64,000 nt of DNA from Oedothorax gibbosus (lineage: Eukaryota). Location of the stretch: the NCBI GenBank assembly GCA_019343175.1, contig JAFNEN010000097.1:29448-93447 (forward strand), given 5' to 3'. Position numbers and translations under genes: made by a program. Shown here in pieces: positions 2,099 to 62,846 of the stretch. Positions within the stretch are counted from its first letter, which is position 1; each line of letters starts with the position of its first letter. The notes below the pieces were generated by a model. The model had not been told where the DNA came from and made no database searches. It saw only the letters and a program-made list of their open reading frames with translations.

Positions 2099-3777
2099 CC
2101 CCTGGCAAAAAGTATCCGATCACCGAAAGCAGTGCCTACGATACGTTCACATCAGTCGTCATTTTTTTTACAATTTTAATATTTTTTCAAACCTTAGAGG
2201 GTTTTTTGTGAAATATGACTAAATTTGTCAAGGAATATTAAATATAAACAGAATATAAAATTATAGTTAACAATTTTCACGAGAAAATACATTGAATCGT
2301 GAAGGAAAAAAGTTTCCGATCATCCTTTTGTGGGGAAAAAAATATTCGATCGCTAGCAAATGCAACGTATTTTAAGTGATATATGCAATTTTTTTTGGTC
2401 GGCGCGTGCGTACAAGATCTAAGTAAACAGTATAAAAGGTTGAATCGTTGTTTCACAGTTAAAACTAGTTTCGAATAAGCAAAAGTATGGATCGAAAGAA
2501 AGAATTGTCTTAAGAGCTAAAACTTTTAATTGTTAAACGCTTGAAAAGCGGAATATCTCAAAGAAAGGTTGCTCACACTTTTGCCTGTGCCCAAAGTACT
2601 GTTTGCGATTTTTGGAAAAAATATCGATCTACTAATGATGTCAAAAATCTTCCTCGAAGCGTTGGCCCACGTGCAACATCAAGTAGGTAAGACAAAAAAT
2701 CGGTTGATCTTGCCAAATCTATGAGAAGTTGTGCGTTGAAAGAACTTAATACCGAGTGATAGAAATATCGGGTAAAGGTATGTGCACGTACAGTGCGAAA
2801 CCGTTTAAACGCAAAACGATTTCACTTCTGCAAAGCCAAAACGAAACCATATATGGCTAAAAACCATAACAAAAGTCGTCTACAATGGTGCAAGAAACAT
2901 AAAAGCTGGTCTTCTGATGATTGTAAGAAGGTTATTTTTAGTTATGAATCTCGTATCTGCCTAGAAACTGGAGATGATGTTGGAATCTGTGTGGAGGAGA
3001 GCTGATGAAAGGTTCAAAAAAGATTGCCTCAAAACTAAAACTAAATATCAGCGTTCATTTTATAGTGTGGAGTTGTATGACTTCCGAAAGAGTCGGTAAA
3101 ATGTGTATAGTGTCGCGAACAATTAATTCTGAAGTGTATATTGACATTTTAGAACATTTTTTGATTCCTACCATCGAGGAAAGGTTTGACGACTCCTCCT
3201 ATTTCAATTTATCAAGATGATAACGCATCATGTCATCGAAGTAAACTGGCCAAGAATTTCTTAAATCGAAATGGAAATTCTCCAATAAAGACTATTGATT
3301 GGTCTGCAAATAGTCAGGATCTCAATATAATCGAAAATGTTTGGAATGTTTTGAAAAGAAACATTGATGAGAGAAGACCAACAAATATGGAAAAACTACG
3401 GCTAGCCATCAAGGAAAGCTGGAGTGAACTTCCATCAAATTTATGCCACGAGTTGGTCGCATCCATGCCTCGGTGCTTAAAAGCAGTAATCAAGGCATAA
3501 GGAGGACCCACTAAATATTAAAGTGACTTGATCGAATACTTTTTTCCCCAAAAAGGGATGATCGGAAACTTTTTTCCTTTACGATTCAATGTATTTTCTC
3601 GTGAAAACTGTTAACTATAATGTTATTTTCGGTTTATATTTAATATTCTTAGACTAATTTAGTCATATTTCACAAAAAACCCTCAAAGGTTTGAAAAAAA
3701 AAAAAATTAAAAAATGACGGCTGATATGAACGTATCGTAGGCACTGCTTTCGGTGATCGGATACTTTTTGCCAGAGG
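2099..3777 (+). mobile_element. Tc1/mariner-like DNA transposon (~1.68 kb) with ~140-bp terminal inverted repeats and a decayed transposase
   Basis: Left end 2099-2240 and right end 3640-3777 are near-perfect reverse complements (cctggcaaaaagtatccgatcaccgaaagcagtgcctacgatacgttca...). The internal ORFs encode a Tc1-type DDE transposase. Confidence 0.85.
2466..3500 (+). pseudogene. Tc1-family transposase pseudogene, frameshifted and with stop codons
   Basis: N-terminal HTH-like stretch (..ISQRKVAHTFACAQSTVCDFWKKYRS..) is interrupted by stops. The C-terminal part is split over three frames (ORFs 2793-3005, 3005-3220, 3186-3500) and contains YQDDNASCHRS and NSQDLNIIENVWNVLKRNI, matching the Tc1 DD34E catalytic motifs DNAPCH and SPDLNPIENLW. 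Confidence 0.75.
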
Positions 3778-12420: not shown

Positions 12421-12562
12421 CCAGCGTGCCGACACAGCTCAATTGGAGAGCGTTGGACTGAAGATCCAAAAGTCCGTGGCACGAGACCGTGTTCAGTAGT
12501 TTATTAATCCTCGGTAGTTATTGTGGTCAGTATCCCAGCCTGTCACTGGGGTGACTGAGAGA
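12421..12562 (+). mobile_element. tRNA-Phe(GAA)-derived SINE-like element
   Basis: GCCGACACAGCTCAATTGGAGAGCGTTGGACTGAAGATCCAAAAGTCCGTGGCACGAGACCGTG is close to canonical tRNA-Phe through the anticodon arm, then the T arm is degenerate. It is followed by the shared body ...tcctcggtagttattgtggtcagtatcccagcctgtcactggggtgactgagagata. Confidence 0.6.
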
Positions 12563-12819
12563 TATAAAATTTCATTATTTTTCCTACGTATAATTTCTCT
12601 GTTAAAAAAACAGCTTTTGCGTTAAAATGACAGATTGTTCATATAAATTAAAGAGACTATTCCTTCTGGCACACTAGTTAACAGATTTTTTTTTGTAAAA
12701 ACAACATACTTTTTTAACAGTACAGAGGTTTGGCAAGATGACTAAAGGACGATATTTTAAAATTGAAAAATTATTATAGTTGAATAGTTTAGTTTTATTT
12801 TTTTTTTAATTTTTTATTG

Positions 12820-13142
12820 TTTTAGTTTTAGTTTTAATTATCGTCGCACTAGAGCTACACGAGGGCTATTGGCGACGGGCGTCGTATTGTAGAACCGCAG
12901 TCAATTGACGAGCCGACACCTGAGTAGGCACCCAACGCAACCGTTAAGGGCGACATCGTACGCAACGTTAGAACTTTGAAGGATATTTAACGTGCACTCC
13001 CGCCACACGGGGTATTATCTGTCGGACATTTTGGCTGCACGGGCCGTTTAAAGATCGGCAGTTTTTTTGGCGATGCCCAGACCCGAACCTGGTACCTTCC
13101 GCACCCTAGGCGAATGCCTAAACGACTGGGCTCCCCAGCCCC
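12820..13142 (-). mobile_element. tRNA-derived SINE, family A, full-length copy
   Basis: On the minus strand the head is ggggctggggagcccagtcgtttaggcattcgcctagggtgcggaaggtaccaggttcgggtctggg, with A and B boxes. The tail is a gttttag-type simple repeat. Other copies lie at 35800, 36676 and 52845. Confidence 0.8.
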
Positions 13143-35189: not shown

Positions 35190-35795
35190 TAGCCCCTAAT
35201 AAAGAGAAAAAAATAATTCATAAATAACTATTAATATTTCAGGTATGGGGATAATTTTTAGAGGAGATCCATTTAATGAACAGTTAAATAACTTTAAAAA
35301 AAGTTTGCATTTTTAAAATATCCTGAAATAAAAAATTTTGTTTTTTCCTAAAGAGAAAAGGAACAAAATAACTGGCCTAAAAATCATTGACTTTTTTCTA
35401 TATAAGTATTAAAAATATAGCATATAGTGTTTTCTATTAAAAATTTTTGGTTTAAGAACATAAATATCATTGATATTAAATGGTATATTGTTAAAATAGT
35501 TTTAGTAAAACATAGTTTTAATACATAAATCATATCTTTTAATGAAAATTTAAATAGACATTGTATTTCTATTAGTTATAAAAAGAAAAAAATAATTCAG
35601 AAATATTAATATTTTCGGGTGCACGGGGGGATTTTCAGAGGAGATACATTTAATGAACAATTAAATCTCTTTTTTAAAAAAAAGTTTGCATTTTTAAACT
35701 CTCCTGAAATGGAAATTTTGTTTTTCCATAAAAAAGGAACACATGCTGACCTAAAAATCATTAAATTTTTCCTAGAAAATAAACGCTTTTGTTAG
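35190..35795. repeat. Tandem repeat with ~400-bp unit (~1.5 copies here, partial third copy at 34290-34480)
   Basis: 35190-35590 is about 75% identical to 35590-35790 (aaaaataattca..ggagat(c/a)catttaatgaaca..gtttgcatttttaaa..cctgaaat..). 34290-34480 matches 35400-35590. Confidence 0.65.
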
Positions 35796-35799
35796 AAGA

Positions 35800-36013
35800 G
35801 GGGCTGGGGAGCCCAGTCGGTTAGGCGTTCGCCTTGCATGCGGTAGTTCTCAGGTTCGGCTCCGGGCATGCCAAAATAACTGCCGGCCTATAAACGGCCC
35901 GTGCAGCCAAAAATTTCCGACGAATAATACCCCATGTAGAGGGAGTGCACGTTAAATATGCTCCAAAGTTCCAACGCTGCTTACGAAGTCGCCCTGAATG
36001 GTTGCGTTGGGTG
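35800..36013 (+). mobile_element. SINE family A, 5' part (tRNA-like head) of a copy split by a hAT-like insertion
   Basis: ggggctggggagcccagtcggttaggcgttcgccttgcatgcggtagttctcaggttcggctccggg... is collinear with the reverse complement of 12890-13142 up to ggttgcgttgggtg, where the insertion begins. Confidence 0.8.
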
Positions 36014-36675
36014 CATTGGCGGATCCAGGTGGGGGGGACCAGGGGGCACGTTCCCCCCCCCTCCCCCAGAAAATGCAAAGTTACACCGGATATTATTGAA
36101 TTTTCTAATTAAATAATTGATAAAGTCTATTTCTTTCTTAATTTTTGGTGGGAAAACGTACATTACACATTCTGAAAGACGTCATAATCCAGAAGACACA
36201 AATCTGTCAAAATCACGATATTACGCAAAGTTAAAGAAAAGAATTAACGAAAAGTAGCCAATCACAAAATTCGACGCAAATAAAATTTCGGAAATATTTT
36301 TTTTATTTATTAGGAGGGTGGCGCCGTTTATATTCCACACGTGCTATCTAACGGTGTATTTTTTTGTAAATGTTTTATTTTTAAGGTTTTGAGTTTGCTT
36401 ATATTATCCAAGTAACAATAAGTGTTAGTTCAACTCGGAAGTTTTTTTACGCTGTTCTCTCATATATAATGCATCAAATTTCATAAGAAGATTGGATTAT
36501 AAGAGTAAGTTATTAGCTTCTATATTTAATCAATAAGTAAGTTCTTATTTATAAAATTTGCTTGCAATTGCCTCAGTGATATTAAAAAATAATAATAAGT
36601 TAAAATGTTCTTAGTTGCTGATTTATAATATTTGTGAAGGTGGCATGTTAAATACTATCTTGTGGGTTTGTGTTT

Positions 36676-36935
36676 AGTTTGAATTATCGTCGCACAAAAG
36701 CTACACGAGGGCTATTGGAGACGGGCGTCGTAATTTAGAACCACTATCAAGTGACGAGAGACACCTGAGTAGCACCCAACGCAACCGTTAAGGGCGACAT
36801 CGTACGCAGCGTTGGGACTTCGGAGCATATTTAACATGCACTTTCACTACACGGGGTATTATTCGTCGGACATTTTTTAGCTGCACGGACCGTTAGTAGA
36901 TCGGCAGTTATTTTTGCGATGTTTTAAGGAACTTG
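36676..36935 (-). mobile_element. SINE family A copy (head degenerate), nested inside the hAT-like element
   Basis: tttgaattatcgtcgcacaaaagctacacgagggctattggagacgggcgtcgtaatttagaacc...ggcagttatttttgcgatg is collinear with 12830-13080. Confidence 0.75.
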
Positions 36936-37084
36936 GGTGCATTTTCCCCTCTTTTTACTGTTTTTGTTAGAACGCTTAATAAAAATCTAGGAAGGTATGT
37001 TTAGTTCTGTTTTCATTAAATTTTAATTGCTGTTTAATATTTAAACTTGGTTTATGAAAATTAGTTGTTATTTTTATATAACTA

Positions 37085-37455
37085 CATATAAGCGGCTCAG
37101 TGGTTAAACGTGTCCACTTCATAAGCCCAAAATCGCGGGTTCGAGCCCCGGCTGAGTCGTCGGATTTTCTGGATGGGAAAATCTAGGGCATGCATGGGGT
37201 CATATGATTATGTGGCAGGTAAAAGATCCCTAGAGGGACTATTTGGCTTGGGTTCTCTCGGCAAAATTAAATCTCGGCTTACTTTAACATCCACATAGAG
37301 CTCATCAGATTCATTGTAATCTGCGCGTCAAAATTGGTAGCGAGAGTCCGCCTAAATGGTGCCACAAGAAAATGGCTCTCTGTTCTGTTCTGGGAAATAT
37401 GCTGAGTCTGCAAAGGCTTGATCGCCAATATTGCAGCCCCATTAGAGAAAAAAAA
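37085..37455 (+). mobile_element. tRNA-derived SINE, family B, nested inside the hAT-like element
   Basis: Head agcggctcagtggttaaacgtgtccacttcataagcccaaaatcgcgggttcgagccccggctgagtcg with A box TCAGTGGTTAAA and B box GGTTCGAGCCC. About 300-bp body ending ..gcagccccattagagaaaaaaaag. Confidence 0.6.
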
Positions 37456-38628
37456 GAGAAAAATTTAACTACATAAATGCATGCAATTTTAAAATTATTT
37501 CACATTGGCTATTCGCGCCTGTACGACGTCGTAAAATTAATTAAAAAGTATGAATTAGCTTCGGTGAAGTTTTAAATATTAAATCGTTTAATTATTTAAT
37601 TGGTGAGCTTTTAACATGTCGTATTTAATTTGTTAGTTAGTTTCGACAAATTGTTTATATGTTAGCTACATCGAATCTTCGAACATTTTTGTGATTTTTT
37701 TTTTAACTTTCATGAAATATATTGTTAATACTTGTTCCAAACCTGTTATTGAATCCACTAATTTCTTAAAAACTAATTTTTGTGCAATTAGTTTTGTATT
37801 TAGTACATTTTTTATTATTTAAATTTTTACAAATTAAATAAATGTTAAATTTAATATTCCGAAGCTAATAGTTTAATTTCTGTACAGCAAATAATGTGAT
37901 TGATTAAATTATTTTTGTAGTTAAATTTTAAATAAAAACATTCTAGAATGGGGTTGTTTCACGTCGTGGATGACAACAGCTCCAACGGTTTGTTTCATTT
38001 GTTGTTTAAAACATTTGTTAAAGAAAGCTTGCATAGAAAGAAAAATTTCTTTCATCTATATCGGTCTTTTTGAGAGTGAAACCGAAGCAACCAATGATAT
38101 TATCGCAGGACGCAAATTAATGATAACAAGAGCGTTACATCATGTGAAACATTCCAATTAATTGATTTTGTCCTATTTATTGCACGTAATTTTTATTTAA
38201 AAAATAAAGTATTAATTATCGATTTAACAATACGAACATTAGTTATGTAAAATAAAAACTAATTAAAGTTTATAAATAGTATTTAGTAAAAAAATTAATA
38301 GTTAAAATCTGTATTTACTATGGTGAATTCAATTAAAAAATGAAAATAGTTTTAATTAAAGATAATTTTAATAAAAAAATTTTAATTTAAAATAGTTCTA
38401 ATTAAATATAATTTTATATAAAACTATTTTTAATTAGAAATAATTGTAATTAAAAGTAAATTCAATTAAAAATATTTTTAATTGGAAACAATTCTAATAA
38501 AAAAATTAATAAAATTAGTATTAAAAAATTGCCTCCCCCCCCAGAAACTATTTCTAGTTGCGCCCCACCACGATTGTTATGTGCCCCCTCCCCCTTCCCC
38601 CCCGGGCGAATTTCTGGATCCGCCACTG

Positions 38629-38745
38629 GTTGGGTGCCTACTCAGGTGTCGGATCGTCACTTGATTATGGTTCTAAAATTATGAAAAACGTCGCCAATAG
38701 CCCTCGTGTAGCTCTAGTACGACGATATTTCAAACTAACCTAACC
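38629..38745 (+). mobile_element. SINE family A, 3' part (body and tail) of the copy split by the hAT-like insertion
   Basis: gttgggtgcctactcaggtgtcggatcgtcacttgattatggttctaaaattatgaaaaacgtcgccaatagccctcgtgtagctctagtacgacgat...caaactaacctaacc is the reverse complement of 12820-12925. Confidence 0.8.
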
Positions 38746-40189
38746 TTTTGTTGCAAGAAACGCCTAAGAAAAGAGCAGCTTCGGTAGAATAACCTCGCGA
38801 TTGACATCAGCGCCATCTGTAAATGAAACGTTTGAAGAACACTTTTTTCCCCAGGAATACTATTGCGCTTGACACACTACCTCTTCTAGCAACTACTTGG
38901 AAGTTCTGGTTCCAGCAAAAACAAAGAGAACCAATATGGATGTCATGACAATAACTAACTGATCTCGAATACACTGTTATAGATCTTATTCCTTATAATA
39001 AATTTAAAATAATATAGTTTATAATGCCTAATTACCCCAATTTTACTATCTCTCCATGAACTGTTTTTTAAGGTAAATATTTTATGTGTCTTGATTTTAA
39101 TTAAATTTGTATATTTATCTAACATATCGGACACGTTTATAATTTCATAAAATGAGTTATTTTTTGGTTCAATCTAAGACTATAAACTCAATCTAAAAAA
39201 CGTATACGGCGACATTTTAGGAAATTTGGTGACAGTAAATGAACGATAAATCATTCATTCCGGCTTAAATACTTTAAAAACGATTTCCTTATGTTAAAAT
39301 TACTTTGGACATCTCGAATATATATCTTATTCCTAGTTATACTCATTTTCTGCTATTGCAGTAGGCAGCATTACCAAAACGTCATAATGTTGTTAAAAAA
39401 AACTGGTTTAGATGATATTTTGTCTTGTATGCTGAGAAATTAAGTGTAATTGTGGGACATGAATTTAATGTGATTCCCGAATAGAGTAAAGCATTAGTTC
39501 TACTGAACGAAAAGTTTGGACACAACATTTGTTTCAGTAAGGTAAAAATAATATAACATTTAATTAAAACAAATGTAATTCCAGAAGGACCAAAAATGGA
39601 TATAATACCTCCGGAACTGTTGCCACACATGACGTGAAACATGCCTATTGCAGTTAATATGTCCAAAGCTTTTAGAATTATTTCACTGGTCAATTTCAAA
39701 TGTGGGTCACATAACAAAGAGGCGGTCATAGTGTTTTTGGGTTAATAATAATCGAACGGTGCTTCTTTCGCAAAGGATTTGGTGCCTTTGTAGGGAGCGA
39801 TAAACTTTTTTTTTTGGTGATAACAGCATTTTCTGGCAAAATGTATTGTGGTGTTTACGCGCATTGTAATTTCTTTTTTATATGTTTTTTCGTCATTTCA
39901 TAGAGTTTTGTTTTATGAGTAGGTTTGGTTTTTGAACGTCTGATTATTATGGATGATACATATTTGAATTCATGTTTTTTTCTAGATTTGAAGAGGGCTG
40001 GTCACTTAACAGTTATTCAGTTTTGTATTTCTTCAGCTAGGTTTCTTTACAAAGCAAAACTAACTTTTTTAGTTTTGTTCATAAAACTAAATTAATTATT
40101 TTTTGGTTTTGTTTTGTAAACAAAGTTGTCCGAACCCAAACAAAACTAACCAAAGTTACTTAGAGACAAAACAAACCTAAACAAAATTG

Positions 40190-45346: not shown

Positions 45347-48129
45347 GTCATTCCACGTCAAATCAACACACTCATTAAACATCACCGTCTCAGATTTTGC
45401 TGAAATTTGGAACAACAGTAGTGTTTATATAGTTATTTGTGAAATGAAAATTTTTATTCACAAATATTGATCTGTTTAAAAAATATGGCACTTTAAAAGT
45501 TCAAAAAATTGGTCAAAAAACCGCATCCGACCAATTTTCAAATTGACCTAGAAGCTTTCCTAATTAAGCTAGAGACCTGGGATAGGTGTCATCTGACAGA
45601 GATTTGTATGAACTTTTTAATGATATGTAACACACTTAGTATATATAAGATTTTATTTAAATTAAAATTTAATTAAATTTTAAAATTTAAATTTTTTAAA
45701 AAAATACATAATTTAAACTTTCGAAATTAATTACACGAATAGTTAGGACTCTTTCACATCATCTGACAAAATATCATGTTGGGATGAAAATGGGTTCATT
45801 GATAAAAAAATTCAAAACTAAAGCTTGTTTTTCATCAATAATTGTTTTTAATAATAAACTTGATCAACTAATTTTAAAAATGACCTAGATGGTTTCCTAA
45901 TTAATTTAGAAATGGTGTTAAGTGCTAGTTTACAGCAATTTATAAGAAAAATTTTAATAAAATATAACACACTCAGATTATAGAAGATTTTATTTAAATT
46001 AAAATTGAATTTTAATTTTTTTTTTTTAAAATGCTCTTAAAATTTTAAAATTATTTTTATGAATAGTTGGTATTTTTTTAAACAATATATGGGTAAAATA
46101 TCATTCTGGTATAAGAATTGGTTCATTGCTAAAAAAAATCAGAACTGAAGATTGTTTTTCATTAATAAATGTTTTCACTATTAACCTCGATCAAGCAATT
46201 TTTAAAATGACCTAGGAGGTTTCCTAATTCAGCGATAAACCTGTGGTAGGTTACATTTTACAACAATTTGTAAGACCTTTCTAATGACATGTAACAAATT
46301 TAGAATATAAAAGATTTAAATTAAATTACAAATAAAAAAGAAACAGTGGAGCTTGTTTATCATTATTGTTAGTTAATAATTCAGCTTAGGAATAACACAA
46401 GAATACTAATATTAACACTACCTTTATAATAAATCTGAATGATAACCTGAAGAAAGTTTCATTTGTAGTTTGAAAAAGCCACATTTGTTTGGAAGACATC
46501 ACTTTGAAGTAGAACATAACTTCTTCCAGTGGGAGTCACAGGATTAACTTTTGCTAGAATGTCCACTACTGACACCCACAAAACATCAGCGTTTCTTGGA
46601 TACGAGAATGATGCAGCTGGCCCAAATGGGTGAAGAAAAGTTGTCTTTACCTCATCAAGTTCATTTTTCTCCAATCTCTGTCTCTTTACTGAGCCTCCAA
46701 CTCCGTCGCAAGGCCCTTTACCATGCGATGTGGCTGAAAAGTGCCACTCTGCTTTTACATTAAAATCTGTCCCGGTGTATGCAGGAAACTGGTGGCTCGG
46801 GTACGTTTTGGAGAAAAATGAACTTAATGAGGTAAAGATAACTTTTCTTCACCCATTTGGGCCAGCTGCATCATTCTCGTATCCAAGAAACGCTGATGTT
46901 TTGTGGATGTCAGTAGTGGACATTCTAGCAAAAGTTAATCCCGTGACTCCCACTGGAAGAAGTTATGTTCCACTTCAAAGTGATGTCGTCCAAACAAATG
47001 TGGCTTTTTCAAACTACAAATGAAACTTTCTTCCGGTTATCATTCAGATTTATTATAAAGGTAGTGTTAATATTAGTATTCTTGTGTTATTCCTAAGCTG
47101 AATTATTAACTAACAATAATGATAAACAAGCTCACTGTTTCTTTTTTATTTGCAGTTTACTTTAAATCTTTTATATTCTAAATTTGTTACATGTCATTAG
47201 AAAGGTCTTACAAATTGTTGTAAAATGAAACCTACCACAGGTTTATCGCTGAATTAGGAAACCTCCTAGGTCATTTTGAAAATTGCTTGATCAAGGTTAA
47301 TAGTGAAAACATTTATTAATGAAAAACAATCTTCAGTTTTGATTTTTTTTAGCAATGAACCAATTCTTATACCAGAATATTTTACCCATATATTGTTAAA
47401 AAAATACCAACTATTCATGAAAATAATTTTAAAATTTTAAGTATGATTTTTAAAAAAAAAATTAAAATTCAATTTTAATTTAAATCTTAATCTGAGTGTG
47501 TTATATTTTATTAAAATTGTCTTATAAATTGCTGTAAACTAGCACTTAACACCATTTCTAAATTAATTAGGAAACCATCTAGGTCATTTTTAAAATTAGT
47601 TAATCAAGTTTATTAATAAAAACAATTATTTATGAAAAACAAGCTTTAGTTTTGAATTTATTTATCAATGAACCCATTCTCATCCCAACATGATATTTTG
47701 TCAGATGATGTGAAAAAGTCCTAACTATTCGTGTAATTAATTTCGAAAGTTTAAATTATGTACTTTTTTAAAAAATTTAAATTTTAAAATTTAATTAAAT
47801 TTTAATTTAAATAAAATCTTCTATATTCTAAGTGTGTTACATATCATTAAAAAGTTTATACAAATCTCTGTCAGATGACACCTATCCCAGGTCTCTAGCT
47901 TAATTAGGAAAGCTGTAGGTCAATTTGAAAATTGGTCGGATGCGGTTTTTTGACCAATTTTTTGAACTTTTAAAGTGCCATATTTTTTAAACGGATCAAT
48001 ATTTGTGAATAAAAATTTTCATTTCACAAATAACTATATAAACACTACTGTTGTTCCAAATTTTAGCAAAATCTGAGACGGTGAGGTAGAATTTTGCCGA
48101 AAAGTGTGTTGAATTGACGCGGAATGACT
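45347..48129. mobile_element. Foldback-like giant palindrome (~2.8 kb): two ~1.35-kb inverted arms, each built from three ~330-bp tandem subrepeats plus a unique ORF-bearing inner segment, around a ~130-bp unique centre (46678-46806)
   Basis: Left arm 45347-46677 is the reverse complement of right arm 46807-48129 at high identity (for example gtcattccacgtcaaatcaacacac vs gtgtgttgaattgacgcggaatgac at the ends). Subrepeats begin with gacctag(a/g)(a/t)g(c/g)tttcctaatt at 45545, 45881 and 46210, mirrored at 47265, 47575 and 47915. Mirror-image ORFs of 71 and 97 aa sit at the inner ends. Confidence 0.8.
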
Positions 48130-51800: not shown

Positions 51801-52844
51801 ATAATGAAATTAATTACCATTTACTTATATTGTATTCCTTTAAAGACCAAATTATTTTTTGTTAAATATTGCTGAATATTTAACAAAATATTGTTGTATT
51901 ATTGTTGTTTTTATTTTATTGTTAAATATTAAGATTTATAAACCGATCCCCTACCCACAGTGCGGAGCAATGGACAAAAATCGAAAAAGACTTTTTATTT
52001 GAGAAGTTTAGTGAATGTAATATTGATCTAGGATAGTGATACCTGCGATAGTATCGTAAAACGGTATTTTTAAGTCCAAAGTAATTATAATAAAAGCATT
52101 AGAATTACGTAGAGATTAGTAAGATTTTATGGAGCGGTAAAAAATAGTGTTACGATCTATATATATAAAAGGCAAAGTCCTGACTGACTCACTCACTCAC
52201 TGATCTATTCATTCATTCATTCACGTATCAACCCCCATCCCAAACTACTGGAGGTAGAGCTACCAAATTTTAGGAAAATATTCTTTTATTATTCGCAGGC
52301 GTCATTTAAGAAGCGATTTTTCGAAATTCGAACCCGAACGGGTGTAGGAAGGCAAAACGTGAGCCGTTTTCTCCATAGGAATAGCATTGTTATGAACTTT
52401 TAATTTATAAATTTCGTTTTTTAATTTGAAAAAAATTTCAACGCGTTCAGCGTGAGCGAAAATTAAGTATAAACACGTCAGAGCACGTGAGTTTAATTTG
52501 TAGGATTGTTATTTGAATATCATTATTTTATTTATAGAATTTAAATCTTTTGATTTTTTTTTGTTACCGAATTTAATTTAATTGACGTTTACAAATGGTA
52601 AGAAATGAAGATATTGCTACAATGTCTGATGGCAGTAAAGGCGATAACTATTCTAGATATAATGAATACTTCGAAGAAATGTCGATTCTTTCTGTTTGTC
52701 TTTCATGTGTGAATGTTTATGAAACTATAAATTTGGTACAGATGATATAATGGCCGATTGAATTTTGGCATTGGCGGCTTTTGGCGAAGTTGAAAATTTA
52801 ACGTAAGGGAGGCTATTTGCATCCAGTTGTATGGGTTAGGGTTA

Positions 52845-59336: not shown

Positions 59337-62300
59337 ATGTCAGAGCCAGAAGAAGATGAAAATATAATTAAAAGAATAAACAGCAATGATTCAAGTGTTA
59401 TTTATAAAGCTTTAAAACAAATAAAACTGTTGTATTTCAATGATTCTAGCAAAATGCTACGATTTTTTAAGTCAGCAGTGATAAAGAAAATAATTTCTTT
59501 TATAGAGCATCCACATTTATCAACTTTATCTTTAAGTATCATTGCTGATCTTTGTATGAAAGATAATTATATCCCAGAAATCATTCAAAACTATGGAATA
59601 AATGTGTTATTAAGAAATATGGATAGAACAGTGAATGAAGACATTCGAAATAGAGCATGTAGGGCCCTTGGTAATATAGCTAATTCTAAAATAGGACTTG
59701 AAGCTGTTTATAGTGTGCAACCCATTCCTGTAAATCTAAGTTTTCTTAGTGGTACGGAAAACGTTAACTGTCAACAAACAGCTGCAAGGACCTTGCGCAT
59801 TCTTGCTAAAGATCATAAATCAAGAGATTTCATTATTCAAGAAAATGGAATAGGTTTGGTTTGTAATTTACTACATTCAAAATCCAAGGATGTCATTAAG
59901 TGTAGCATTAGGGCTTTAGCTGAACTTACAGAAAACTGTAACATTCATAGTGCTCGACAGGTGAAGGAAAGGCATGTTTTAAAAATACTGGTTGAACTTT
60001 ATTCCTTCTCCAATAAAGACATAAAAGAGCACATATTAGCAATTCTAAAAAATCTGTCTGCTATTGAAGAAATTAGATATGATTTATTGAAAATTGGTGC
60101 ACTAAAAATTTTTGCTGAAGCATGTATGGGTTCTGTTTCTTCTGAATCCTCTAGACATGCTGTATTAGCATTATGCTGTTTGTTGGACCGGCTTCACATT
60201 TGGGAAGGAAACGGAGTAACTAAAAAAGGTGGTTTAAAGGCAGTTCTTGAAATTCTCCGACAAAGTACATTTGAAGATATTCATAAACAAATCCTCATCG
60301 CACTTTATCCTCATTGTTATGAACCCAATATACCAGATATACTCTTTGAACAAGAAATAATAGAAATTTTGTTACAGGTTCTTAAACGTTTCATTGCATG
60401 TAACAAAGATGGACATTCGAACCCTGCTCTTGAATATTTCCATCTCCAGGTTCCATCTGAAGTGGATGGAGAGTTGAGTAGAAATTCCCTAACAAGTTAT
60501 AATTCTGAAGAGGATCTATCTTTAGAAGAGAAATCATATGAAAATTCCAACTTTCCCTCCTTTTCTGATTCCATATCAAAGTTTCCATTTATCCAACCCT
60601 ATCCTAATCCCATAAAGAGTTTTCCAAATTACAACTCTTCATCGCATTTAAACCTACACAGTTCTGGTGCTGAAAGCAATTGTAGTCCATGTAGTTCAAG
60701 AAGCAATAATCCAAGGTCTCCAAGCATATATTCTGATTCTGAAGTAAGTTCTCCTCTAATTGATCCTTGGTCACCCCAGTCGATTGTTAATGCAAATGAA
60801 TGTTTATCTCCTGTTTTTAGTTGCTCAGAAGATTCATGTGATGACAACAACTTTAAAAAAGTTGATGAAAAATATGTACAGCTTTCAAGTTTAACAAGAA
60901 CTGAAAAAACAACTACAAACGATATTTACGATAGTATCACAGTCTGTAGTCCAAAGTCATGTCAAAGTGCAGCAGTTGTGATTTCTATTCAGGATAACAA
61001 ATCAGACGCTCTTTTTACACCAATTCGTAAAGACAAAGATGAATCAGGTGGCTTTGAAGAGTTTCATGACGTAGAACCTCTTTCTTCAATTCTAAGTTGC
61101 TCAGAGGATACTTCTGATGACGATGACTGGATAGTAGTTGACGACTATATATATCCAAATTCAACCAATGTTACTCTGACCCATGAAACAAGTGTTTGTG
61201 ATTCAGTTGTGTGTAGTTCCTCAACCTCAGATCCAAATTTGGATTCTAAATCTGCCAAAGAGTGTGACACATCTTCAGCAACTCAGATTCTAGTTGATGA
61301 TGATATATTGCCAATTTCAATAAACGTTACTCCTATACATGCAAAAAGTGTTTGTGATTTAGCTGTGTGTGTTCCATCAACATCTCAAGATACCGCCATT
61401 ACGGATTCTAAGTCCGCCCAAAAATGTAATAAGTTATCTACAGAAATTTACAAAGATAGTAATCTTTCATATACTAAAAAAGAGAGTGTAAAAATTGAAG
61501 CCATGCATAGTCCAAAAGATTTATCACCTACAGTAAAACGTAAAGCAGACGTAGATATTATAGGAATACCTATTAAAAAAATAAAAATATCTTCTGCCCC
61601 GAACGTGTCCCATAAGCTAGAAATGTTTGCAGAAAAGTGTACTTTAGATCATTGTGTTTTACTATTCCTAGATCAATTATCATTTCATCTTGAAAAAAAA
61701 ACCAATTCTCAAATCGCCAGTAGAAGTTGCTTTTCAGTTTTAATGGACTATATAGTGTCTATCAATAACCCGAACCCCAAAGCTGAAAAGATTCTCCTAA
61801 ATTTAGTAAAAAATAGGTATTGTTTTGAAAAGCTCATTATGAGTGGGTTTGTGGCTGATATGGATAAAATAATGATTGTGAATCATTCATTGAAAAACTG
61901 TATTCGATGTTCAAGTATACATGATACTTATACTAAATTGATTTCAGCTTTAAGAACTGTAGCTGAATCCACATATGGAGTGGGTACTTTATGCCATATT
62001 TTATCCACTAAAGATGAAACTTGTCAATTTTATGCTGTCCATGCAATGTCACATTTAATTCATTCTACATGTTCGTTATTTAAACTAACATTTCAGTGTA
62101 ATGGTTTATCACTTCTCTTTAGTTCTCTTTTGAATGAATTAAAAGAAGTTAGTTCTTTAGCTGTGATATCCCTTTGTAATATATATCAAAAGCTACCAAA
62201 AACTACACTCATTACAAATCTTAATAAGTGTTGTTTTTCCAAATCATGTTGTTTGAATGTGTCACCTAATTGTATGTACTTGGAAGATGCCATTACATAT

Positions 62301-62846
62301 GATGTTACATTCCTTGTTGACAACCACAAAGTTTCAGCTTCACGGGAAAAACTTAGTAGAAATTCTGAATATTTTAGAGCCCTCTTGGATGGACACTTTT
62401 CTGAGAAAGGAAAGGATATTATTTTGATGGACTTAATATCAGTCACATCATTAACTGCAATATTTCATTTTCTTCATGGATGTTTAAATAATAATACTTG
62501 CCGGTTTCTAAAGGACCTGAATGTCGAAGAACTTTTGGAATTATTATCTGAAAGTGAACCATTTTTGTTGTCAGATATGAAAGCATTCATAATTGACAGT
62601 TTATGTCACAGCTTCACTCCTAAAGATATATTTAAAATTTACAAAGTTGCTAAGATTTTTGACTGTACAGTACTGTGCCAAAAGACTTTGCACTTTGTTT
62701 TGAGTACAAACATTTCACACACAAAATTTCTAGTTAAGTTTTTTGAATATATATCGAGCTTCAAAGAGTATAATGCTTTAAGTGATATAAAAATATTAAT
62801 ACAAAATATTTTTGCAGAGTGTCGGTATTATGCATGTAAAGATTAA
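59337..62846 (+). CDS. ARMC5: ARMC5-like protein: N-terminal armadillo repeats, Ser-rich low-complexity middle with two tandem ~45-aa repeats, C-terminal BTB/POZ domain. Uninterrupted 1169 codons
   Basis: A 3.5-kb ORF in a ~70% AT genome. ARM-repeat signatures (..NEDIRNRACRALGNIANSKIGLEAV.., ..NCQQTAARTLRILAKDHKSRDFIIQENGIGLVCNLLHSKSKDVIKCSIRALAELTEN..). BTB signature ..YDVTFLVDNHKVSASREKLSRNSEYFRALLDGHFSEKGKDIILMDLISVTSLTAIFHFLHG.. ARM followed by a C-terminal BTB is the ARMC5 architecture. The listed start is only the first in-frame ATG, about 25 nt after an acceptor-like tttcag at 59311; the frame is open upstream. Confidence 0.85.
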   Translation: MSEPEEDENIIKRINSNDSSVIYKALKQIKLLYFNDSSKMLRFFKSAVIKKIISFIEHPHLSTLSLSIIADLCMKDNYIPEIIQNYGINVLLRNMDRTVNEDIRNRACRALGNIANSKIGLEAVYSVQPIPVNLSFLSGTENVNCQQTAARTLRILAKDHKSRDFIIQENGIGLVCNLLHSKSKDVIKCSIRALAELTENCNIHSARQVKERHVLKILVELYSFSNKDIKEHILAILKNLSAIEEIRYDLLKIGALKIFAEACMGSVSSESSRHAVLALCCLLDRLHIWEGNGVTKKGGLKAVLEILRQSTFEDIHKQILIALYPHCYEPNIPDILFEQEIIEILLQVLKRFIACNKDGHSNPALEYFHLQVPSEVDGELSRNSLTSYNSEEDLSLEEKSYENSNFPSFSDSISKFPFIQPYPNPIKSFPNYNSSSHLNLHSSGAESNCSPCSSRSNNPRSPSIYSDSEVSSPLIDPWSPQSIVNANECLSPVFSCSEDSCDDNNFKKVDEKYVQLSSLTRTEKTTTNDIYDSITVCSPKSCQSAAVVISIQDNKSDALFTPIRKDKDESGGFEEFHDVEPLSSILSCSEDTSDDDDWIVVDDYIYPNSTNVTLTHETSVCDSVVCSSSTSDPNLDSKSAKECDTSSATQILVDDDILPISINVTPIHAKSVCDLAVCVPSTSQDTAITDSKSAQKCNKLSTEIYKDSNLSYTKKESVKIEAMHSPKDLSPTVKRKADVDIIGIPIKKIKISSAPNVSHKLEMFAEKCTLDHCVLLFLDQLSFHLEKKTNSQIASRSCFSVLMDYIVSINNPNPKAEKILLNLVKNRYCFEKLIMSGFVADMDKIMIVNHSLKNCIRCSSIHDTYTKLISALRTVAESTYGVGTLCHILSTKDETCQFYAVHAMSHLIHSTCSLFKLTFQCNGLSLLFSSLLNELKEVSSLAVISLCNIYQKLPKTTLITNLNKCCFSKSCCLNVSPNCMYLEDAITYDVTFLVDNHKVSASREKLSRNSEYFRALLDGHFSEKGKDIILMDLISVTSLTAIFHFLHGCLNNNTCRFLKDLNVEELLELLSESEPFLLSDMKAFIIDSLCHSFTPKDIFKIYKVAKIFDCTVLCQKTLHFVLSTNISHTKFLVKFFEYISSFKEYNALSDIKILIQNIFAECRYYACKD

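What the first reader, a model, noticed from the sequence alone, without database searches (positions are those of the whole stretch)
35800..38745. Nested insertion: hAT-like element (8-bp TSD GTTGGGTG) inside a SINE, itself hosting two further SINEs
The family-A SINE copy is split exactly at ggttgcgttgggtg. That 8-mer is duplicated on both sides of a 2615-bp element whose termini are CATTGGCGGATCCAGG... and ...CCTGGATCCGCCACTG, an imperfect TIR of about 50 bp with G-runs. An 8-bp TSD and a CA(G/T)TGG terminus are hallmarks of hAT elements. The interior has no transposase ORF but contains an inverted family-A SINE copy (36676-36935) and a family-B SINE (37085-37455). That gives an insertion chronology across three or four events. 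The G/C homopolymer-rich TIR (GGGGGGGACCAGGGGGCAC) is unusual in this AT-rich context.
Basis: partly seen in the sequence, partly recalled or inferred. Interest (0 to 1): 0.6.

Follow-up and report, generated by a model that had tools for sequence, protein, structure and literature searches.

The report
Dead hAT-type transposon nested in SINE
A 2.6-kb non-coding cut-and-paste DNA transposon of the hAT ("Pegasus-like") kind landed inside a short retroposon in a spider genome and carries two more retroposons; this is ordinary genomic debris, though its end sequences are shared with many animal genomes.

Summary
A 2,615-bp insert (36014-38628) has a 15-bp terminal inverted repeat (CATTGGCGGATCCAG / CAGTGGCGGATCCAG, 14/15). 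It is flanked by a perfect 8-bp duplication, GTTGGGTG. Removing the insert and one duplicate restores a colinear SINE-A that matches three other copies in the window.

The insert has no protein-family match in any of its six reading frames. It holds an inverted SINE-A and a SINE-B; the SINE-B has its own 10-bp duplication. The host is the spider Oedothorax gibbosus or a very close relative.

The G/C-rich ends are a family hallmark, not an oddity. The same 15-mer followed by a G-run occurs in more than 120 metagenome contigs and 13 contigs filed under prokaryotic MAGs; the flanks that carry recognisable genes are animal-type or eukaryote-type. One end has an immediate G-run and a G/C palindrome. 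The other has a spacer of about 10-12 nt before the G-run. The window copy has both.

Silkworm "Pegasus-like" MITEs have near-identical repeats with 8-bp duplications, and Pegasus is listed among hAT elements. No transposase partner was found, so the hAT assignment rests on hallmarks and the literature. Verdict: reading supported, an ordinary new member of a known kind, low interest. One side puzzle: relatives make both 5-bp and 8-bp duplications.

The parts
35787..35799 (+). Left target-site duplication of the outer SINE-A (TTTTGTTAGAAGA)
   Evidence: Matches TTTTGTTGCAAGA at 38746-38758 at 11/13 positions.
35800..36013 (+). Outer SINE-A, 5' part. The head has motifs resembling pol III A and B boxes.
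   Evidence: Colinear alignment with three other copies. The box motifs were judged by eye only; there is no Rfam tRNA hit.
36006..36013 (.). Target-site duplication copy 1, GTTGGGTG. It belongs to the SINE-A sequence.
36014..38628 (.). Non-autonomous DNA transposon with terminal inverted repeats, 2,615 bp, hAT / Pegasus-like
   Evidence: Repeats plus an 8-bp duplication plus empty-site reconstruction. No Pfam hit in six frames at E<=1. Longest ATG/GTG/TTG-initiated ORF lying wholly inside it is 63 aa.
36014..36028 (+). Left terminal inverted repeat, CATTGGCGGATCCAG. Base 3 is T where the family has G.
36029..36075 (+). 'End A' subterminal block: G7, then G5-CACGTT-C9TC5, a decayed GGGGGCACGTGCCCCC palindrome
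   Evidence: Best matches are the end-A blocks of L016, L001, L125, L127 and L128. Family statistics. Folding energy is no better than shuffles (z = -0.08).
36674..36949 (-). Inner SINE-A copy, inverted, with a diverged or deleted head. No recognisable target-site duplication.
37079..37088 (.). SINE-B target-site duplication, left copy (TAACTACATA)
   Evidence: 10/10 identical to 37466-37475.
37089..37465 (+). SINE-B, 377 bp, with a head bearing motifs resembling pol III A and B boxes and an A-rich tail. It is the only copy in the window.
   Evidence: No Rfam tRNA hit.
37466..37475 (.). SINE-B target-site duplication, right copy
38343..38504 (.). AT-rich tandem array with a 16-bp unit and about 10 copies, inside the element
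   Evidence: TRF score 163; family D1. Weak similarity to AT-rich stretches elsewhere in the window.
38529..38613 (-). 'End B' subterminal block. Read inward from the repeat: a 10-nt spacer AAATTCGCCC, then G7AAG5AG5CAC. A CCTCCCCCCCCAGAAA motif is in direct orientation with the left end.
   Evidence: (family D4).
38614..38628 (-). Right terminal inverted repeat (reverse complement CAGTGGCGGATCCAG), identical to the family consensus
38629..38636 (.). Target-site duplication copy 2, GTTGGGTG
38637..38745 (+). Outer SINE-A, 3' part, ending in CTAACCTAACC
38746..38758 (+). Right target-site duplication of the outer SINE-A (TTTTGTTGCAAGA)

Best explanation
The region is a fossil nest of mobile elements in the genome of the spider Oedothorax gibbosus or a very close relative.

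1. A roughly 325-bp SINE-A retroposed first. Its 13-bp target-site duplication now matches at 11/13.
2. A non-autonomous class II element of the hAT superfamily, of the Pegasus-like kind, then integrated into the SINE by cut-and-paste. A transposase supplied in trans bound the 15-bp repeat CAGTGGCGGATCCAG and the G-rich subterminal blocks. It made cuts staggered by 8 bp at GTTGGGTG, and repair duplicated that 8-mer.
3. The element carries a SINE-B (perfect 10-bp duplication) and an inverted SINE-A. These arrived either in this copy after integration or in its donor before it.

The copy is probably immobile now. The left terminus reads CAT where the family has CAG, and its subterminal palindrome is broken (CACGTG has become CACGTT).

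Shown: the insertion, its exact boundaries, the 8-bp duplication, the absence of coding capacity, and membership of a widespread family of ends. Inferred: that the mobilising enzyme was a hAT transposase, and that the G-run/palindrome blocks are its binding sites.
For: - **Boundaries.** Exact 8-bp duplication abutting a 14/15 repeat, unique in 64 kb. The empty site is reconstructed against three other SINE-A copies.
- **No coding capacity.** No Pfam domain in six frames, and the longest ATG/GTG/TTG-initiated ORF wholly inside the element is 63 aa.
- **Host.** The ARMC5-like ORF in the window is 99% identical to O. gibbosus JTE90_029159.
- **Family.** CAGTGGCGGATCCAG plus a G-run occurs in more than 120 metagenome contigs and 13 contigs filed under MAGs, against 0 in the viral collection.
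- **Complete relatives.** 16 have perfect 8-bp duplications.
- **Two end types.** End A has perfect stems of 7 or more in 59% of 34 ends. End B has them in 7% of 97 ends. The window copy has end A on the left and end B on the right. Its left 47 subterminal nt best match L016, L001, L125, L127 and L128.
- **Literature.** Silkworm BmMITE-13 (CAAGGGCGGATCCAG) and BmMITE-14/16 (CAGTGGCGGATT.) have 8-bp duplications and are called Pegasus-like (PMC2997013). Pegasus is listed among hAT transposons, and the third base of hAT termini is described as always G (PMC1131882). hAT elements have 10-25 bp repeats and 8-bp duplications (PMC3942097).
- **Target preference.** The pooled 8-bp duplications lean towards nTTnnAAn (T2 8/16, A7 8/16, p about 0.05 each). 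None has TA at positions 4-5. By my recollection of Arensburger et al. 2011, this fits Ac-type rather than Buster-type hAT targets.
Against: - **No transposase.** None was found linked to these ends. This covers the window, 133 related loci, and a peptide search across the ends.
- **This copy's own duplication.** GTTGGGTG has T at position 2 but not A at position 7.
- **Relatives with shorter duplications.** Twelve complete relatives have 5-bp rather than 8-bp duplications. Three of them carry end-A blocks among those closest to the window's left end (L125, L127 and L133).
- **Size.** At 2.6 kb the element is far larger than typical Pegasus-like MITEs.
- **Hairpin.** The thermodynamic signal is not significant for this copy (z = -0.08).
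- **Basis of the link.** The Pegasus-to-hAT link rests on published classification by termini and duplications, not on a demonstrated transposase.
Confidence: 0.8

Rival explanations
1. It is a non-autonomous member of the P superfamily, mobilised by a THAP-domain P-type transposase. That enzyme also makes 7-8-bp duplications, and its elements also begin with CA.
For: The duplication is 8 bp and the terminus begins CA. The target 8-mer is GC-rich in a genome of about 31% GC. No transposase was found that would exclude this reading.
Against: Near-identical repeats are published as Pegasus-like, and Pegasus is listed as hAT. The third base G is the hAT signature. The literature search for this repeat did not return the Anopheles P/MITE paper.
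Confidence: 0.07
2. It belongs to another, or an undescribed, cut-and-paste superfamily with 8-bp duplications (Merlin, MULE, Zisupton or Novosib type). Alternatively it belongs to a lineage whose enzyme makes both 5-bp and 8-bp staggers.
For: No transposase was identified. One MITE family (L031, L033, L041, 85% mean column identity) shows both 5-bp and 8-bp duplications, which is unusual for a single classical hAT enzyme.
Against: By my recollection, Merlin and MULE termini typically start with G rather than CAG. hAT is also the only superfamily I know of in which 5-, 6- and 8-bp duplication groups are catalogued (the Repbase hAT5/hAT6 groups); this was not checked here. The palindromic T-rich/A-rich preference in the duplications is hAT-like.
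Confidence: 0.1
3. The original mobile unit was a short MITE of a few hundred bp, like most relatives. Most of the 2.6 kb is later filling (SINE-A, SINE-B, the AT-rich tandem array and other insertions) rather than family sequence.
For: Of the 33 complete relatives with an exact 5-8-bp duplication, 29 are 147-914 bp. About 650 bp of this copy is demonstrably SINE. The remaining 1,961 bp is 27% GC, like the host, whereas the ends are 61-70% GC. The 16-bp AT array resembles other AT-rich stretches in the window.
Against: Relatives of 2.8-2.9 kb without coding capacity also exist (L057, L074, L103). Apart from SINE-B, no further internal duplications or element boundaries were found. This rival concerns the element's history, not its identity.
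Confidence: 0.3
4. There was no transposition. The inverted repeats and direct repeats arose by chance or by local rearrangement.
For: None beyond the general frequency of short repeats in AT-rich DNA.
Against: The 15-mer pair is unique in the window: shuffles give 0.47 matches even when 3 mismatches are allowed. It abuts an exact 8-mer duplication and splits a SINE precisely. The same ends recur in more than 130 independent loci with their own duplications.
Confidence: 0.01

Closest known systems
Pegasus (Anopheles gambiae, GenBank U47019) and the silkworm Pegasus-like MITEs BmMITE-13, -14 and -16
   Same: The duplication is 8 bp with no fixed sequence. The repeat begins CAGTGGCGGA. BmMITE-13 (CAAGGGCGGATCCAG) matches the window repeat consensus at 13/15 positions, and BmMITE-14/16 match at the first 11 (PMC2997013). 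None has coding capacity.
   Different: The silkworm families are 263-431 bp and multi-copy. The window copy is 2,615 bp, and only one was seen in 64 kb. I could not read Pegasus's own sequence, so the link is through the silkworm authors' classification.
Canonical hAT transposons (hobo, Ac, Hermes, BuT2) and their MITEs such as Mar
   Same: A short repeat (10-25 bp), an 8-bp duplication, and a terminus beginning CAG (PMC3942097; PMC1131882). Non-autonomous derivatives keep only the ends. The repeat contains GTGGC, which by my recollection (not checked) is the subterminal motif bound by Hermes transposase.
   Different: No hAT transposase, BED finger or hAT dimerisation domain was found here or in any relative. 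The strongly G/C-homopolymeric, asymmetric subterminal blocks are not a feature I know from hobo, Ac or Hermes.
hAT groups with short duplications (Repbase / RepeatMasker 'hAT5' and 'hAT6'; from memory, not checked)
   Same: Twelve relatives sharing the same repeat and end architecture have 5-bp duplications and one has 6 bp.
   Different: The window copy is unambiguously 8 bp.
P-element superfamily MITEs (for example the Anopheles AgaP-associated MITEs and BuT5)
   Same: The duplication is 8 bp, the terminus begins CA, and the derivatives are non-coding.
   Different: No similarity of the repeat was found. The literature search for the 10-mer did not return those papers.

Membership tests
hAT superfamily (non-autonomous member) | 8-bp target-site duplication | tested here: met
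   GTTGGGTG occurs on both sides and only once in three intact SINE-A copies.
hAT superfamily (non-autonomous member) | Short terminal inverted repeat (10-25 bp) beginning 5'-CAG (third base G) | tested here: met
   The repeat is 15 bp at 14/15. The right end is CAG. The left end is CAT, a single change from the family consensus. Criteria are from PMC3942097 and PMC1131882.
hAT superfamily (non-autonomous member) | Ac-type target preference nTnnnnAn | tested here: inconclusive
   The window's duplication has T2 but T7. Pooled over 16 family duplications, T2 is 8/16 and A7 is 8/16 (p about 0.05 each), with no TA at positions 4-5. The consensus itself is recalled from Arensburger et al. 2011 and was not read here.
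hAT superfamily (non-autonomous member) | An autonomous relative with the same termini that encodes a hAT transposase (BED finger, split RNase-H DDE domain, hAT dimerisation domain) | tested here: inconclusive
   None was found. Negative results: Pfam on the element, ORF, motif and tblastn scans of 133 loci, and a peptide search. The spider genome itself could not be searched with these tools.
Pegasus-like MITEs | Repeat of the CAGTGGCGGA / CA(A/G)(G/T)GGCGGATCCAG type with an 8-bp duplication | tested here: met
   13/15 match to BmMITE-13 and the first 11 bases match BmMITE-14/16.
Pegasus-like MITEs | Miniature size (under about 600 bp) and high copy number | tested here: not met
   The element is 2,615 bp with one copy in 64 kb. 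Genome-wide copy number is not testable here. It is therefore a Pegasus-like non-autonomous element, not a MITE in the strict sense.
CAGTGGCGGATCCAG / G-run family defined here from metagenome loci | Asymmetric ends: end A is the repeat plus an immediate G-run and a G/C palindrome; end B is the repeat plus a spacer of about 10-12 nt and then a G-run | tested here: met
   The window's left end is end A with a degraded palindrome. Its right end is end B with a 10-nt spacer.
P superfamily | Termini or subterminal sites related to a P/THAP9-type autonomous element | not tested
   No P-type reference termini were available. There is only indirect evidence against.
tRNA-derived SINE (SINE-A and SINE-B) | A tRNA-related pol III head | tested here: inconclusive
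   Motifs resembling A and B boxes are visible by eye (GAGCCCAGTCGG...GGTTCGGCTCC and GGCTCAGTGG...GGTTCGAGCCC). There is no Rfam tRNA match at E<=1 and no ARAGORN call.
tRNA-derived SINE (SINE-A and SINE-B) | Dispersed copies flanked by variable target-site duplications | tested here: met
   SINE-A has 4 copies in the window, and the outer copy's duplication matches at 11/13. SINE-B's duplication matches at 10/10, but there is only one copy in the window.

The most novel reading that the evidence does not exclude
The CAGTGGCGGATCCAG / G-run-palindrome ends may define a lineage of cut-and-paste elements spread widely across animals: spider, silkworm, and many host-associated or marine metagenome contigs. 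Its autonomous partner would be undescribed. The same non-autonomous family would be mobilised with two different staggers, 5 bp and 8 bp (L031/L041 against L033). That implies either two distinct transposases cross-mobilising one kind of end, or a single enzyme with a bimodal cut spacing. Near-identical 50-nt ends in a spider and in marine animals might also reflect horizontal transfer.
Probability: 0.12. Interest if true: 0.5.

Novelty: new member of a known kind. Interest (0 to 1): 0.2.

Why it matters
For the window itself it matters little. It is a clean, textbook example of nested transposable elements, useful for repeat annotation of the O. gibbosus genome and for relative dating: SINE-A came before the hAT-type insertion.

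Two by-products may be more useful.

1. A simple sequence signature (CAGTGGCGGATCCAG followed by a G-run) flags a widespread family of animal transposon ends.
2. The coexistence of 5-bp and 8-bp duplications within one MITE family is a concrete, testable question about how cut spacing is set in hAT-type transposases.

Tried and rejected
- **Transposase remnant inside the element.** Six-frame Pfam scan at E<=1: nothing.
- **Other genomic copies via spurious ORFs across the element ends.** Concatenated end peptides against 5.8 billion proteins: nothing.
- **Exact-protein look-ups to reach the O. gibbosus contig.** Both the window ORF and P0001 are 'not on record', so the spider genome could not be mined.
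- **Autonomous partner among the 133 related loci.**
  - The 2.9-kb relatives L057 and L103 have no transposase-like ORF.
  - ORFs of 180 aa or more, and ORFs on the interior side of the repeats, are unrelated host or retroelement genes.
  - A regex for the hAT dimerisation motif was negative.
It found only a different element family with CAGGGGTTCTTAAC-type ends.
  - That L022 protein has no Pfam or PDB match, so I do not rely on it.
- **Viral contig scan.** Zero hits; useful only as a negative control.
- **Hairpin significance by folding energy.** Not significant for the window end (z = -0.08) and marginal for two relatives (z = -1.6 and -1.8). G-runs and C-runs pair in any order, so I rely on positional and palindrome conservation instead.
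- **tRNA origin of the SINE heads.** Rfam at E<=1 found nothing.
- **Target-site duplication for the inner SINE-A.** None recognisable.
- **Yuan & Wessler 2011 table of superfamily hallmarks.** Not held in the library.
- **A 9-bp duplication (GTTGGGTGC).** Considered and rejected, because it would make the terminal repeats asymmetric.
Full report
**1. What is in the sequence**

The sequence ...GGTTGCGTTGGGTG is followed at 36014 by CATTGGCGGATCCAGG. At the other side ...TCTGGATCCGCCACTG ends at 38628 and is followed by GTTGGGTGCCTACTC.

- A search for CAKTGGCGGATCCAG allowing three mismatches finds only these two good sites in 64 kb, in inverted orientation. Shuffles give 0.47 matches.
- GTTGGGTG occurs four times. 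Two abut the insert, and two lie inside other SINE-A copies at the homologous position.
- The repeat finder reports the 15-nt arms at 93% complementarity, and the long inverted matches between the outer and inner SINE-A.

**2. Empty-site reconstruction**

I joined 35800-36013 to 38637-38745 and compared the result with the window by blastn. It matches 13142-12828 at 85.5% over 317 columns without a break. It also matches 53162-52834 at 79% and 36917-36674 at 85%.

In the multiple alignment the junction GGTTGCGTTGGGTGCCTACTCAGGTGTCGG is identical to the copy near 12.9 kb, and every intact copy has GTTGGGTG once. A C follows both copies of the 8-mer, so 9 bp is formally possible. That would make the termini asymmetric, so 8 bp is the parsimonious reading.

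**3. Anatomy of the insert**

- **Coding capacity.** The longest ATG/GTG/TTG-initiated ORF wholly inside the insert is 63 aa. Six-frame translations have no Pfam match at E<=1.
- **Inner SINE-A.** An inverted copy lies at 36674 to about 36949. Its head is diverged or partly deleted and it has no recognisable duplication.
- **SINE-B.** It lies at 37089-37465 and is bounded by a perfect 10-bp duplication, TAACTACATA.
- **Tandem array.** A 16-bp AT-rich array lies at 38343-38504.
- **Composition.** The non-SINE interior is 27% GC. The first 60 bp are 70% GC and the last 100 bp are 61% GC.
- **Outer SINE-A.** It has its own 13-bp duplication, now 11/13: TTTTGTTAGAAGA against TTTTGTTGCAAGA.
- **Relative ages.** The state of the duplications (11/13, then 8/8, then 10/10) fits the order SINE-A, then the DNA element, then SINE-B. 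From one copy it cannot be decided whether the inner SINEs entered before or after the transposition.
- **SINE heads.** Neither head is recognised by Rfam's tRNA model or by ARAGORN. "tRNA-derived" rests only on box-like motifs seen by eye.

**4. Host**

The only long ORF in the window (59337-62846) is an ARMC5-like ARM+BTB protein. It is 99% identical to a hypothetical protein of the dwarf spider Oedothorax gibbosus and 38-61% identical to those of other spiders. The published genome paper describes repeat screening but names no hAT family.

**5. The ends belong to a widespread family**

The pattern CAGTGGCGGATCCAG-N(0-12)-GGGGGG was scanned in three collections.

- It hit 13 contigs filed under prokaryotic MAGs.
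- It hit nothing in the viral collection.

Where the flanks carry recognisable genes, they are of animal or eukaryotic type: a rhodopsin-type GPCR, collagen, an APE+RT retrotransposon, a PHD+Ulp1 protein, and a GIY-YIG ORF that I read as Penelope-like.

Pairing inverted ends within loci gave 16 complete elements with perfect 8-bp duplications, 12 with 5 bp and one with 6 bp.

The ends come in two kinds.

| End type | Structure after the 15-bp repeat | Ends examined | Perfect stem of 7 or more |
|---|---|---|---|
| End A | Immediate G-run, then a G/C palindrome | 34 | 59% |
| End B | Spacer of about 10-12 nt, then a G-run | 97 | 7% |

The centre of the end-A palindrome varies in a self-complementary way between lineages (CACGTG, ATGCAT, CGATCG, GGCC, CAATTG).

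Most complete elements that could be inspected carry one end of each kind. The window copy fits exactly. Its left end is an end A whose palindrome is one mutation away from GGGGGCACGTGCCCCC. It best matches L016, L001, L125, L127 and L128 over the 47 nt beyond the repeat. Its right end is an end B with a 10-nt spacer.

So the "unusual" G/C-rich ends are the conserved signature of the family. The "50-bp imperfect TIR" is really a 15-bp repeat plus non-identical subterminal blocks. Folding energies do not single these blocks out from shuffles: z = -0.08 for the window and -1.6 to -1.8 for two relatives. The evidence is conservation of position and palindrome, not thermodynamics.

**6. Which superfamily**

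The literature search for the repeat found one relevant paper. In the silkworm, BmMITE-13 has the repeat CAAGGGCGGATCCAG and BmMITE-14/16 have CAGTGGCGGATT. All have 8-bp duplications of no fixed sequence, and the authors class them as Pegasus-like (PMC2997013). That paper names no autonomous partner.

Kapitonov and Jurka list Pegasus (U47019) and PegasusA among hAT elements. They note that the third base of hAT 5' termini is always G (PMC1131882). hAT elements are described as having 10-25 bp repeats and 8-bp duplications (PMC3942097). The label "hAT-Pegasus" also occurs in the literature; I recall it as a RepeatMasker class.

Pooled over 16 independent 8-bp duplications, T is enriched at positions 2-3 and A at positions 6-7 (8/16 each; p about 0.05 for T2 and for A7). 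None has TA in the centre. This is what I recall for Ac-type rather than Buster-type hAT targets. The window's own 8-mer fits only half of that.

All of this points to hAT. The defining feature, a hAT transposase in an element with these ends, was not found:
- not in the window;
- not in the 2.9-kb relatives;
- not in any of the 133 loci by ORF listing, motif search or tblastn;
- not by a protein search with peptides translated across the ends.

The spider assembly could not be reached through the exact-protein look-up. A putative hAT in L022 has different termini (CAGGGGTTCTTAAC, duplication TGCTACAG) and lacks Pfam or PDB support, so it is not used as evidence.

**7. Mechanism and state**

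The most likely history is cut-and-paste integration by a trans-acting hAT-type transposase. The enzyme recognises the 15-bp repeat, and probably the G-run/palindrome blocks, and cuts the target with an 8-bp stagger. The first step, integration with an 8-bp duplication, is shown. The identity of the enzyme and the role of the subterminal blocks are inferred.

This copy carries CAT instead of CAG at the left tip, the only such case among the paired ends examined, and a broken palindrome. It is probably a dead copy.

**8. Rivals**

- A P-type element shares the 8-bp duplication and a CA terminus, but nothing else supports it.
- Another or an undescribed superfamily cannot be excluded without the transposase.
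- The idea that the unit was originally a short MITE, later inflated by insertions, is plausible. Of the 33 complete relatives with an exact 5-8-bp duplication, 29 are 147-914 bp. This concerns history only.
- Chance is excluded.

**9. An unexplained side observation**

L031, L033 and L041 are one MITE family (85% mean column identity). L031 and L041 have 5-bp duplications (ATGTC and, in the element's orientation, GCTTC), and L033 has an 8-bp one (CTTTTAAT in the same orientation). Three of the copies whose end-A blocks are closest to the window's left end also have 5-bp duplications (L125, L127, L133). Repbase recognises hAT groups with 5- and 6-bp duplications (from memory). Even so, both lengths within one non-autonomous family is worth a specialist's look.

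**10. Verdict**

The feature is an ordinary nested transposon fossil: a new member of a known kind (a hAT / Pegasus-like non-autonomous element), and of low interest. The family-level findings are modest by-products: conserved ends across many animal-type contigs, asymmetric end architecture, dual duplication length, and utility as a marker of MAG contamination.

Noticed in passing
L121-L133 (genome contigs). Examples: L125/L133 = CBDBMG010000003.1; L127 = OZ220035.1; L130 = OZ219999.1; L128 = CALNYB010000057.1: Contigs deposited under bacterial or archaeal MAGs carry this family of transposon ends. The MAGs are labelled Nitrosopumilaceae, Stappiaceae ('chromosome 84' and 'chromosome 48'), Cyanobacteriota, Entotheonella and others. 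Several contigs encode eukaryote-type genes: an APE+RT retrotransposon, a PHD+Ulp1 protein, and a GIY-YIG ORF that I read as Penelope-like. They look like host DNA mis-binned into MAGs.
   Followed up: partly
L031:2473-2751, L041:3755-4015 and L033:875-1148, plus the table: One MITE family (85% mean column identity) shows 5-bp duplications in two copies and an 8-bp duplication in a third. Overall, 12 complete relatives have 5 bp, 16 have 8 bp and one has 6 bp, all with the same 15-bp repeat.
   Followed up: partly
window 2763-3497 (+): A frameshifted remnant of a Tc1-like transposase spread over three overlapping ORFs (HTH_Tnp_Tc3_2 at E = 1.6e-10; DDE_3 at E = 9e-8).
   Followed up: partly
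window 59337-62846 (+): An uninterrupted 1,169-aa ARMC5-like ORF (ARM repeats plus BTB). The 99%-identical O. gibbosus database protein JTE90_029159 is only 801 aa and covers 66% of it, so the public gene model may be truncated.
   Followed up: no
window 12428-12498 (+): A marginal tRNA hit (Rfam 30.7 bits against a threshold of 29; ARAGORN calls nothing) lies 330 bp from the SINE-A copy at 12828-13142. It may be a tRNA pseudogene or another SINE head.
   Followed up: no
window 38730-38745, 12800-12830 and 52810-52840 (SINE-A 3' tails): SINE-A copies end in CTAAC/CCTAA-like short repeats, the complement of the arthropod telomeric unit TTAGG.
   Followed up: no
window 46462-47020: Two overlapping 129-aa ORFs on opposite strands encode near-identical C-terminal peptides (...FLHPFGPAASFSYPRNADVLW...). 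One carries a GKGPCDGVGG motif. This is an inverted duplication of an unidentified, possibly transposon-derived, sequence. It has no Pfam hit.
   Followed up: partly
L022:1034-3455: A separate 2.4-kb element with perfect 14-bp repeats (CAGGGGTTCTTAAC) and an 8-bp duplication (TGCTACAG). Its ORFs show only weak similarity to the Hermes C-terminus (tblastn E = 0.32) and have no Pfam or PDB match. Related coding sequence occurs in L047 and L023.
   Followed up: partly
window 36951-36975 and 35786-35799: The 11-mer TTTTGTTAGAA lies next to the 5' ends of both the outer and the inner SINE-A, but in opposite orientation relative to each SINE. This is probably chance.
   Followed up: no
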